Shown: in pieces, positions 34,864 to 37,099 of the stretch
Layout of the letters: the number at the start of each line of letters is the position of its first letter
Numbering within the stretch: the stretch's first letter is position 1
NCBI GenBank assembly: GCA_965223545.1
Contig: OZ245006.1
Span: forward strand, 3,872,001-3,936,000
Reading direction: 5' to 3'
Length of the DNA stretch: 64,000 nt
Source: Planctomycetota bacterium
GTDB lineage: Bacteria; Planctomycetota; UBA1135; UBA2386
The notes under the pieces: generated by a model
What the model was told of the DNA's origin: nothing
The model's input: the letters and a program-made list of their open reading frames with translations, nothing else
Databases searched by the model: none
Made by a program: the position numbers and the translations under genes

Positions 34864-35622
34864 TCACGCCAGGGGCGCGACGCGATCCGCCAACAGCCTG
34901 GTGATGGCGTCGGCTTCGTGCACGATCTTGCCGTCGATCCAAAGGCCGGGAGCCTGGTCGTTGCCCGCCCGTCCGCGCAGCTCCGCTGCCGCCGCGGTGT
35001 CGTCGGAGACGTTGCAGACCTTCAAGCCCTGCACCCCGAGGTTGTCGGCAGCGACGCGCACCCGGCGCGATGGACCGCACTTGGACTTCACGTAGAGGCA
35101 CGCATCCGCGGGCAGCGCGCCGCCGGACGCGAGGCCCTGCGCGGCGCCCTGCGCGGCTTGCACCTCGGTGCAGACCGACAGCAAGTCGTCGACAGAGCGG
35201 TGGCCCGCGGGCGTCACCGACTCCGAGTAGCGGATGATCCCCTTCTTGTCGATCACGACAGTGGCCCGATCGGTGATCCCGGCGTCGGCCAGGTAGTGGC
35301 CGAAGCCCTGCGCCATGGCCCCCTTGGGCTCGAAGTCGGCGAGCAGCGGGAACGACACGCCACCGAGGTCACGCCCCCAGTTGGCGTGGCAGTGAACGCT
35401 GTCGATCGAGACACCGAGGACGTGGGTGTCGAGGGCGCGGAAGCGGTCCAGTGCAGACTGCACTGCGGGGACTTCCTGGCTTCAAGTCGGCGTCCAGTCG
35501 AGCGGGTAGAAGAGGAGCAGCACGTTCGCCTTGTCGCGAAACTGGGCGAGAGTGACCGTGCGGCCGAACTGATCCTGCAGGCTGAAGTCCGGCGCCTGCG
35601 AGCCGGTCTGAGTCATGGACAT
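34864..35622 (-). CDS. Peroxiredoxin (AhpC/AhpE-like)-glutaredoxin fusion, putative selenoprotein (Sec47), 252 aa
   Basis: GGAG RBS; APDFSLQDQFG...FYPLDWTPT-TGA(35482-35484)-SQE continues in frame into LGVSIDS...FPLLADF...DRATVVID; C-terminal CGPS Grx-like domain. Confidence 0.9.
35446..35472 (-). promoter_or_regulatory. Putative SECIS hairpin of the peroxiredoxin
   Basis: CAGTGCA-GTC-TGCACTG perfect 7-bp stem starting 16 nt after the TGA. Confidence 0.75.
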
Positions 35623-35664
35623 GGTTTCTCCAGAGTACGGTGTGGGGTTGGGAGGATCGCGCCT

Positions 35665-36105
35665 TCAAGCCGCGAGGTAGGCGTTGAGCATCCAGACGGT
35701 CTGCTCTTGTTCGTCGGCGAAGCCCTCGAGCAAGTTCGTGGTCGCCGCGTCTTCGGCCTCGCCGGCCGCGGCTGCCGCCGCCCGCAGGGCGGCGTTCAAC
35801 GTGGTGTAGTCGTCGCGCAACCGGACCACCATGTCGTTGGCAGCCGGGCTGCCACCATCCTCGCTCAGGCGAGTCACGGCGAGCACGTCCTTCATCGTGT
35901 AGAGCGGCCTGCCGCCGAGCGCCGCGATGCGCTCGGCCAGTCCGTCGATCTTGAGCGCGGCATCGTCGTAGAGCTCTTCGAACTTGGCGTGCAGCGCGAA
36001 GAAGTTGGGGCCGGCAACGGTCCAGTGGTAGCCCCGCAGCTTGTGGTAGAGCACCTGGTAGTCGGCGAGCAAGGCGTTGAGTTGGGCAGCGGTCGAGTCG
36101 GTCAT
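35665..36105 (-). CDS. dps: DNA starvation/stationary phase protection protein (mini-ferritin)
   Basis: YHWTVAGPNFFALHAKFEELY...DGLAERI..LGG, WML; GAGG RBS. Confidence 0.95.
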   Translation of the reverse strand: MTDSTAAQLNALLADYQVLYHKLRGYHWTVAGPNFFALHAKFEELYDDAALKIDGLAERIAALGGRPLYTMKDVLAVTRLSEDGGSPAANDMVVRLRDDYTTLNAALRAAAAAAGEAEDAATTNLLEGFADEQEQTVWMLNAYLAA

Positions 36106-36164
36106 TTGGAGTCCTCGGGAATCAGGATCGAGAGCAGGATCGAACCAAAGCAGGCCGGATTCCA

Positions 36165-36201
36165 ATTGATTACCTTTACCCCTCTCATAACTTGTCCTTA
36201 T
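36165..36201. promoter_or_regulatory. OxyR binding site
   Basis: ATTG-N7-TTAC-N7-ATAA-N7-TTAT matches the spacing of ATAG-N7-CTAT-N7-ATAG-N7-CTAT; lies between dps and oxyR, overlapping the oxyR start. Confidence 0.8.
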
Positions 36202-37099
36202 GAATGAGGCACGCCCCAGTGTGCGCCAGCTGGAGTACCTGGTGGCGCTGGCCGAGACCCTCAACTTCGGCCGCGCCGCCGAGCGCTGCTTGGTCAGCCA
36301 ACCCGCGCTGAGCACGCAGATCCGGACTCTGGAGCAGCTCTTGGGAGCACCGCTGTTCGAGCGCGACCGACGCCGGGTGCTACCCACCGCCACGGGCCTG
36401 CGCGCCGCTGGGCAAGCCCGCGACGTGCTGCAGCGCATCGACGCGCTGGTGGAAGGGGCGCGCCACAGCCACCCCCTGTCGGGCGAGCTGCGTCTCGGGG
36501 TGATTCCGACCATCGCGCCGTACGTGCTGCCCAGGGTGGTGCCACGACTGACGCGACGGTTTCCCGATCTGCGCCTACAGCTGCGCGAGGACGAGACCGC
36601 GCGACTGGTCGAGCAACTCGAGCGCGGCACCCTCGACCTCTTGCTGGTCGCGCTGGAAGCTCCGCTGGGGGCCAACCAAACGCTCGAACTGTACCGGGAC
36701 TCGTTCGTGCTGATCGCGCCGCAGGACCACCGGCTCGCGGTGCAACGGACCGTCCGCGAAACCGATCTGGCGGGTCGCGATCTGCTGCTGCTCGAAGAAG
36801 GACATTGACTGCGACAGCAAGCGCTGGCGGTCTGCCAGCGGAGCGGCGCCGCTGAAACCACGGGGCTGCGGGCCACGAGCCTGCACACCCTGGTGCGCAT
36901 GGTCGGCGCCGGTGCGGGTGCGACGCTGTTGCCACAGATGGCGATCGCCACCGAAGTGCGCCGCGCCGACCGCATCACCCTGCGCCGCTTCAAACGCGAT
37001 GGCCCTCACCGGACCATCGGACTGTGCTGGCGGCCGAACTCCGCCCGCGCCGACGGATTTCGCGAGCTGGCGTCGGTGTTTCGCGACGCCAGCAGCTGA
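36200..37099 (+). CDS. oxyR: Hydrogen peroxide sensor OxyR, putative selenoprotein (Sec203), 299 aa
   Basis: LysR HTH; GVIPTIAPYVLP; LLEEGH-TGA(36806-36808)-LRQQALAVC...RATSLHTLVRMVGAG.G.TLLP...RTIGLCWR in one frame to stop 37099. Confidence 0.92.
36822..36840 (+). promoter_or_regulatory. Putative SECIS hairpin of oxyR
   Basis: CGCTGGCG-GTC-TGCCAGCG 8-bp stem (one G-U) starting 13 nt after the TGA. Confidence 0.75.

What the first reader, a model, noticed from the sequence alone, without database searches (positions are those of the whole stretch)
34864..37099. Self-contained selenium-dependent peroxide regulon: Sec-OxyR, OxyR box, dps and Sec-Prx-Grx
Seen: two TGAs 1.3 kb apart on opposite strands each land on the catalytic Cys, and each is followed by a hairpin with the same GTC loop and 3' TGC, 21 and 23 nt downstream. 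The intergenic region holds ATTG-N7-TTAC-N7-ATAA-N7-TTAT (36165-36201). Two random nonsense mutations would be unlikely to give this pattern. Inference: sensor and effector are both selenoproteins. Under low Se a truncated OxyR keeping its HTH could alter dps/prx expression, and the fused Grx could reset OxyR as GrxA does in E. coli.
Basis: partly seen in the sequence, partly recalled or inferred. Interest (0 to 1): 0.9.

Follow-up and report, generated by a model that had tools for sequence, protein, structure and literature searches.

The report
Selenocysteine version of peroxide sensor OxyR
The apparent stop codon in this bacterium's peroxide-sensing gene regulator OxyR very probably encodes selenocysteine at the sensing site, a form that recurs in many uncultured bacteria and that current selenoprotein catalogues do not list, and here it sits beside an iron-storage gene and a selenium-dependent peroxidase it most likely controls.

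Summary
Confirmed and extended. oxyR (36200-37099) has TGA at the Cys199-equivalent, and the AhpE-like peroxiredoxin-glutaredoxin (35622-34864) has TGA at its peroxidatic site. The genome encodes selA, selB, selD and tRNA-Sec, and the same hairpin follows TGA in four known-type selenoprotein genes. Sec-OxyR recurs: 19 of 47 metagenome pattern hits and 6 of 401 phylum genomes (TAA/TAG/TGG/TAY: 0); 21 of the 119 nearest database proteins end exactly before that codon. TGA forms keep Cys208 and the peroxide pocket, carry stronger hairpins than Cys forms, and are not one clade. A matrix built from homologues' boxes ranks 36165-36201 first in the chromosome, so the regulon looks local. Glutaredoxin resetting OxyR is not supported: the domain is monothiol (CGPS), no glutathione synthetase was found, and BshC is present, so it more likely recycles its own peroxiredoxin. 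The all-selenium three-gene module was seen only here. A 2020 paper says Sec-OxyR was undiscovered, and a 2026 catalogue of 119 families lacks it. This scan noted Sec-OxyR before on other DNA (e1-7670631). Selenium incorporation and DNA binding are untested.

The parts
36200..37099 (+). oxyR, 299 aa LysR-type peroxide sensor with Sec at residue 203
   Evidence: the only OxyR-like gene found in the genome
36806..36808 (+). in-frame TGA = predicted Sec203 (E. coli Cys199 equivalent)
   Evidence: recurs in 20 other distinct genes
36822..36840 (+). predicted bacterial SECIS of oxyR (8-bp stem, GTC loop 21 nt after TGA); its 3' arm starts with the Cys212 codon (36833-36835)
   Evidence: (-13.9 kcal/mol)
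36165..36201 (.). OxyR-type box; overlaps the oxyR start codon and ends 59 nt upstream of the dps start
   Evidence: rank 1 on C1, score 25.6, next 22.0
35665..36105 (-). dps mini-ferritin, 146 aa, no in-frame TGA; single dps-like hit in the genome
34864..35622 (-). AhpE-like peroxiredoxin fused to a monothiol glutaredoxin-like domain, 252 aa, Sec at residue 47; starts 42 nt after dps, probable operon
35482..35484 (-). in-frame TGA = predicted peroxidatic Sec47 in PxxxTxxU
   Evidence: TGA in 11 of 11 matches in 61 genomes
35449..35465 (-). predicted SECIS of prx-grx (7-bp stem, GTC loop 23 nt after TGA)
35170..35172 (-). Cys151, candidate resolving or relay cysteine of the Prx domain (inference)
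   Evidence: Cys in 115 of 120 aligned sequences
35068..35079 (-). CGPS monothiol motif of the Grx-like domain (Cys182)
   Evidence: C182, G183 and S185 invariant in 120 of 120

Best explanation
This is an OxyR peroxide-response locus in a selenoprotein-rich bacterium (probably Planctomycetota, inferred from the names of its nearest homologues). Its sensor carries selenocysteine in place of the peroxidatic cysteine. SelB reads the in-frame SECIS and inserts Sec203 (inferred, strongly supported). H2O2 oxidises Sec203 in an otherwise intact OxyR pocket, and Cys212 resolves it to a Se-S bond that switches the tetramer (inferred from OxyR chemistry). OxyR bound at 36165-36201 represses its own gene and turns on the divergent dps-prx/grx operon (site conservation shown; binding and sign of control inferred). 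Dps sequesters iron. The Sec-AhpE domain reduces peroxides and is recycled by its own monothiol Grx domain with a low-molecular-weight thiol, more likely bacillithiol than glutathione here (inferred). Sec-OxyR is a recurrent, uncatalogued selenoprotein family that has switched between Cys and Sec several times.
For: Sec machinery is complete: tRNA-Sec(UCA), selA, selB and selD, the last itself with a TGA. TGA is otherwise the main stop (2689 of 3767 long ORFs). TGA at the same codon occurs in 19 of 47 metagenome pattern hits (15 distinct), each open about 95-115 codons downstream. It also occurs in 6 of 401 phylum genomes, against 16 TGY and no TAA, TAG, TGG or TAY. Of the 119 nearest protein clusters, 21 end exactly at the GH before that codon and 2 end short elsewhere. 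C212, H202, T133 and R271 are invariant in 21 of 21 Sec-form rows, and T104 is T or S. Hairpins average -9.8 kcal/mol in 21 Sec genes against -5.9 in 36 non-TGA genes (P=3.5e-4, kinship ignored). Cells paired: 69% (12 of 500 shuffles as high) against 48% (346 of 500), with a both-sided change at one pair. All 5 other Sec-OxyR genomes have a tRNA-Sec match. The box is positionally conserved in 15 of 36 homologues. The Prx has TGA in 11 of 11 matches, and 117 of 119 database homologues begin after residue 47.
Against: There is no experiment and no RNA run. Co-occurrence with Sec genes discriminates poorly because selA is in 288 of 401 phylum genomes, and 1 of the 5 other Sec-OxyR genomes (86% complete) lacks a selA hit. 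About a third of Sec-OxyR genes do not fit the hairpin register well, for example L040, L054, L063, L079, L084 and L085. The metagenome scan had no TAA/TAG control. All but one of the 21 other OxyR matches in 60 closer relatives have Cys, and none has TGA. The protein scores 271.5 bits on NCBIfam OxyR, below the 329 cut-off. No sigma-70 promoter was found. The thiol partner rests on gene presence only; a GCS2-family ligase is present.
Confidence: 0.85

Rival explanations
1. The oxyR TGA is a nonsense mutation or an assembly error, and the gene is dead.
For: Cys TGY to TGA is a single change. Closer relatives have Cys. No sister genome of the same genus was available.
Against: The same codon recurs in 21 distinct genes, with median pairwise protein identity 49%. 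The other single-step changes TGG and TAY were never seen. The hairpin is stronger in TGA genes. A short-read contig agrees at every base.
Confidence: 0.02
2. One reading: the fused Grx domain reduces oxidised OxyR and closes a feedback loop, as GrxA does in E. coli.
For: Grx1 helps deactivate E. coli OxyR and is an OxyR target (PMC8115020, passages). The gene lies in the probable regulon.
Against: The domain is monothiol CGxS in 120 of 120 sequences, unlike dithiol GrxA. It is fused to Prx where oxyR is not adjacent. No gshB or gor was found over cut-off. The genome has separate CPFC, CGFT and UGAC glutaredoxins. AhpE-type enzymes are recycled by a Grx-like mycoredoxin (PMC6178380, passages).
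Confidence: 0.15
3. The UGA is a selenium-sensing switch: in low selenium a 202-aa OxyR, or simply less OxyR, changes dps/prx output, so the locus integrates selenium supply with peroxide.
For: Termination at the UGA must compete with Sec insertion (established knowledge). The fragment keeps the whole HTH (residues 9-66). dps is Sec-independent while prx is Sec-dependent.
Against: The fragment cuts the sensing domain (residues 92-297) in the middle and is probably unstable (inference). Auto-repression at the overlapping box would buffer OxyR levels. Repeated Cys/Sec exchange with variable partners looks like the usual catalytic substitution in Sec-rich genomes.
Confidence: 0.2
4. The selenium chemistry is as proposed, but reduced OxyR mainly represses dps-prx, and oxidation releases it rather than recruiting polymerase.
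For: OxyR is a repressor or dual regulator in many bacteria (PMC8115020). The box lies close to the dps start.
Against: No consensus promoter was found in the region, which fits activator dependence, and the box abuts a poor -35/-10-like pair read by eye. This is weak evidence.
Confidence: 0.3

Closest known systems
OxyR (E. coli 1I69/1I6A, P. aeruginosa 4X6G, C. glutamicum 6G1B/6G4R)
   Same: HTH_1 plus LysR substrate domain; GH-x-L...C motif; pocket Thr/Thr/His/Arg; box over its own start; divergent dps and peroxiredoxin targets.
   Different: The peroxidatic residue is encoded by TGA with a SECIS-like hairpin. PMC7231847 (section 3.1 read) modelled a Sec199 variant and states that none had been discovered.
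Sec-containing peroxiredoxins (PxxxTxxU; PF00578; listed in PMC13188914 Table 1)
   Same: PxxxTxxU motif and in-frame SECIS.
   Different: The closest solved relative is AhpE (Rv2238c, E 5e-28), and it is fused to a CGxS Grx-like domain. No Prx-Grx fusion row is in that table, and the family is mostly mis-called as about 200-aa fragments.
M. tuberculosis AhpE / mycoredoxin-1 system
   Same: AhpE-like Prx paired with a Grx-fold reductase (PMC6178380, passages).
   Different: The two are fused, Sec replaces Cys, a second conserved Cys151 is present, and the genome has BshC. PMC8945050 (passages) leaves the AhpE reductant in bacillithiol users open.
Catalogued bacterial selenoproteins (119 families, PMC13188914; BSepDB, PMC13326102)
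   Same: TGA at a conserved redox Cys, and a bSECIS meeting the consensus model.
   Different: No OxyR or LysR row is listed. The only 'regulatory' entry is the FmdB-family putative regulatory protein.

Membership tests
OxyR | LysR architecture (HTH_1 plus LysR_substrate), with OxyR as best-scoring family | tested here: met
OxyR | NCBIfam NF008361 (PRK11151) curated cut-off | tested here: not met
   271.5 bits against cut-off 329, although it is the best of 52 families
OxyR | Peroxidatic residue at the C199 position and resolving C208 | tested here: met
   TGA (Sec) at 203 and Cys212; C212 in 21 of 21 Sec-form rows
OxyR | Pocket residues T100, T129, H198, R270 (P. aeruginosa numbering) | tested here: met
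   T104, T133, H202 and R271 here; T104 is T in 19 and S in 2 of 21 rows, the others 21 of 21
OxyR | Four-tetramer box at the divergent or own promoter | tested here: met
   15 of 36 homologues have one 13-31 nt before the RQL motif; the matrix ranks this site first on C1
OxyR | DNA binding and H2O2-dependent switching | not testable with these tools
   needs EMSA, footprinting and transcript data; no RNA run listed
Bacterial selenoprotein | selA, selB, selD and tRNA-Sec in the genome | tested here: met
Bacterial selenoprotein | bSECIS consensus: loop 3-9 nt with G in its first two positions, stem 4-16 bp, 16-37 nt from UGA, MFE <= -7.5 | tested here: met
   criteria; oxyR -13.9 and prx -9.5 kcal/mol, spacing 21 and 23 nt
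Bacterial selenoprotein | TGA recurring at the Cys position in independent homologues, with coding conservation downstream | tested here: met
Bacterial selenoprotein | TGA forms confined to Sec-encoding genomes | tested here: inconclusive
   5 of 5 have tRNA-Sec and 4 of 5 have selA, but background selA is 288 of 401
Bacterial selenoprotein | Selenium incorporation in the protein | not testable with these tools
   needs 75Se labelling or mass spectrometry
Peroxiredoxin (AhpE-like) | PxxxTxxC/U motif and catalytic Arg | tested here: met
   P40, T44, U47; R119 in 120 of 120
GrxA-type dithiol glutaredoxin | CxxC active site | tested here: not met
   CGPS here; S185 in 120 of 120
GrxA-type dithiol glutaredoxin | Glutathione system in the host | tested here: inconclusive
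   no PF02955 or TIGR01421 match over cut-off, GCS2 present, BshC present; genome 91% complete by markers

The most novel reading that the evidence does not exclude
A natural selenocysteine DNA-binding transcription factor family that makes peroxide defence depend on selenium supply. UGA read-through sets the amount of full-length sensor, so the locus acts as a selenium-and-peroxide coincidence switch over a Sec-independent arm (Dps) and a Sec-dependent arm (Prx-Grx), with a faster and harder-to-overoxidise sensing residue.
Probability: 0.2. Interest if true: 0.92.

Novelty: new variant of a known kind. Interest (0 to 1): 0.8.

Why it matters
Catalogued bacterial selenoproteins are almost all enzymes, transporters or unknowns; a bona fide LysR transcription factor with Sec at its sensing residue is not listed in the 2026 inventory. 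OxyR is the textbook thiol sensor. Calculations predicted that Sec would lower its activation barrier (25.6 against 31.0 kcal/mol) while noting that no such variant was known (PMC7231847). Natural Sec/Cys sister pairs (L060/L103, L079/L035, L086/L099) make the question of why selenium is used instead of sulfur directly testable in a signalling protein. They also offer parts for OxyR-based peroxide probes. About a sixth of the nearest OxyR database entries (21 of 119) and nearly all entries of the AhpE-Grx family (117 of 119) appear to be mis-called at the UGA.

Tried and rejected
Protein-seeded scan of genome contigs: only two Cys or distant hits, because the seeds were too strain-specific. 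Co-occurrence with selA: uninformative at 72% background. Raw E. coli consensus scan: too degenerate (78 sites on C1). The best hit, near an AhpC-TSA-domain gene at C1:1107007, was not among the top 20 matrix sites. No box within 500 nt upstream of the katG match (best 0.6) or of three Prx genes; degenerate sites could be missed. Sigma-70 and terminator scan: nothing. No RNA holder listed. A second study's contig covers the oxyR TGA with 0 differences but has only 28 letters on one side, so it was not counted. Two database pairs (P0006/P0135 and P0013/P0172) share source and contig length, hinting at Cys-OxyR next to the Prx-Grx fragment. The cluster look-up gave no accessions, so this is unverified. 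Plasmid search: 33 records, codon not examined, not used. TGA as Trp or Gly recoding: rejected, since TGA ends most genes. Candidates L111 (true stop of a glycosyltransferase) and L112 (no Pfam hit) were rejected as selenoproteins. No structure or complex prediction was run. PerR/Fur was not searched. Literature: six searches aimed at Sec-OxyR or new selenoprotein families plus one search listed no report of it. The library lacks most subscription papers, and the primary papers behind the catalogue were not read. The BSepDB supplement held 3,999,962 characters with no hit for OxyR, LysR, regulator or peroxide, but it may be cut before its family table.

Full report
Observation. Read with TGA=U, 36200-37099 (+) gives a 299-aa OxyR with U203 in EEGH-U-LRQQALAVC212. 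35622-34864 (-) gives a 252-aa protein with U47 in PLDWTPT-U, and 36105-35665 (-) is a 146-aa Dps. Against solved structures, U203 and C212 fall on the peroxidatic and resolving cysteines of OxyR. U47 falls on the peroxidatic Cys of M. tuberculosis AhpE, the best PDB match. Pfam finds AhpC-TSA at 7-132 and Glutaredoxin at 176-234.

The host uses selenocysteine. The genome (8.1 Mb, 2 contigs, 70% GC, 91% complete) has tRNA-Sec(UCA), selA, selB and selD over cut-off, selD with its own TGA. TGA is otherwise the main stop (2689 of 3767 long ORFs). The GTC-loop hairpin follows 26 of 135,852 TGA triplets. Among them are FdhA-type, DUF3179, CMD/AhpD-like and Rdx genes whose Pfam domain spans the TGA; four of six candidates tested held up. 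These four family types are in the published catalogue (PMC13188914, sections 5 and 7 parts 1-2 read). Ten of 24 AhpC-TSA matches also have a TGA. selD uses a different loop. Named nearest homologues are mostly Planctomycetota, so the phylum is an inference.

Sec-OxyR is a family. In 60 closer relatives, 21 OxyR matches had no stop: 20 had Cys and 1 had Leu. A motif scan of metagenomes gave 47 hits. Nineteen are OxyR with TGA at this codon (15 distinct around the codon) and 28 are chance hits. L052 is cut by its contig, and L063 looks broken upstream. In 401 phylum genomes the motif had TGA in 7 (6 OxyR including this one, 1 chance), TGY in 16, and TAA, TAG, TGG or TAY in none. With the truncated protein as query, 21 of the 119 nearest clusters end exactly at GH, 2 end short elsewhere, and only 2 of the 21 match loci already found. 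No U or X was seen in the listed OxyR proteins. The fixed motif undercounts variants. Sec forms keep C212, H202, T133 and R271 in 21 of 21 rows and T or S at 104. The segment +13 to +36 folds at a mean -9.8 kcal/mol in 21 Sec genes and -5.9 in 36 non-TGA genes (34 Cys plus L033 and L036; P=3.5e-4, relatedness ignored). The window's 7-pair stem is paired in 69% of cells in Sec genes (12 of 500 shuffles as high; slid controls 33-56%) and 48% in 36 Cys genes (346 of 500). About a third of Sec genes fit poorly. The five other genomes all have a tRNA-Sec match and four have selA, but selA is in 288 of 401, so this test is weak.

History. In a 61-row tree (19 Sec, 42 others; near-duplicates, short rows, L026, L033, L036 and most database proteins left out; the sensing residue masked), Sec needs 11 changes, at least 5 forced by well-supported branches. 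The AU test rejects one clade (p 9e-7) (FastTree on 118 rows also gave 11). The tree is unrooted and its backbone is poor, so gains cannot be told from losses.

Box and regulon. Against the recalled E. coli consensus the box scores 11 of 16, which 78 sites on C1 reach. But 15 of 36 homologue upstream regions (9 of 15 Sec, 6 of 21 Cys; 22 loci skipped for lack of an anchor or sequence) have such a box 13-31 nt before the HTH motif. A matrix from those 15, without this site, ranks 36165-36201 first on both strands of C1 (25.6; next 22.0; katG upstream 0.6). It overlaps the oxyR start and ends 59 nt before dps, and prx-grx follows dps after 42 nt. No consensus promoter or terminator was found. 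oxyR and dps are single-copy by tblastn. Other Sec-oxyR genes face Cys-AhpC (L044 group, L066, L077), dps (L089), a Prx5-like gene (L054) or unrelated genes. The ten other Prx homologues all have TGA and none has oxyR or dps within 1.5 kb. The all-Sec triple was therefore seen only here.

The Prx-Grx. Of 119 database homologues, 117 start after residue 47, as expected if gene callers stop at the TGA; one full-length entry has Cys and one has Trp. C182, G183 and S185 are invariant, and C151 is present in 115 of 120. AhpE is reduced by mycoredoxin-1 (PMC6178380, passages), and its reductant in bacillithiol users is open (PMC8945050, passages). This genome has no glutathione synthetase or reductase over cut-off, a GCS2 ligase, and BshC, plus three free glutaredoxins. 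The fused domain most simply serves its own Prx; resetting OxyR is possible but unsupported.

Mechanism. Shown: codons, hairpins, machinery, conservation and box position. Inferred: Sec insertion, Se-S switching, auto-repression with activation of dps-prx (repression remains possible; PMC8115020, passages), and intramolecular recycling. Speculative: selenium gating by truncation, since the stop falls inside the sensing domain.

Novelty. PMC7231847 (section 3.1 read) computes a lower barrier for Sec199 and says Sec variants of OxyR had not been discovered. The 2026 list of 119 families has no OxyR or LysR entry. BSepDB's text has none (passage search), and its supplement may be cut. Searches listed no report; only listings were seen for the other papers, and closed-access papers are not covered. 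This scan's earlier notes report Sec-OxyR in another genome (e1-7670631) and a Sec-LysR in sulfate reducers (e1-7113356). These are unchecked AI notes, seen after my analysis and not counted as evidence. Verdict: a new variant of a known kind, interest 0.8.

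Noticed in passing
G000:C1, 24 AhpC-TSA matches: 10 of 24 AhpC-TSA-domain genes carry one in-frame TGA at the redox Cys, several with GGTC or GGT-loop hairpins. There are also TGA forms resembling MsrA (C1:4196562), Grx (C1:4573997 region) and a metal-binding UxxC protein (C1:6727831), named by recalled motif. This is a very large selenoproteome.
   Followed up: partly
L113-L123: In ten relatives the Prx SECIS region has other sequences (often GGAAG), while here it has this genome's GTC loop, suggesting genome-specific SECIS convergence.
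   Followed up: partly
G000:C1:6247186 (-): In-frame TGA in GFL-U-SAG followed by a GGTC hairpin, with long open frames on both sides; possible further selenoprotein, family not checked.
   Followed up: no
G000:C1:2250427: The second-best box (22.0) lies at the start of another LysR-like gene (tblastn hit 2250529-2251269), probably that regulator's own site.
   Followed up: no
window 41073-42455 (+) and 43557-44939 (-): Two near-identical 460-aa transposase-like ORFs in inverted orientation (IS110-like by recall) flank a 333-aa transposase-like ORF at 42532-43533.
   Followed up: no
window 37114-39330 (-): 738-aa dynamin-like GTPase converging on oxyR (PF00350).
   Followed up: no
L079 and L035: A Sec-OxyR pairs at 100% support with a Cys-OxyR from a record titled Ca. 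Azotimanducaceae (Pseudomonadota), so Sec-OxyR probably extends beyond this phylum.
   Followed up: partly
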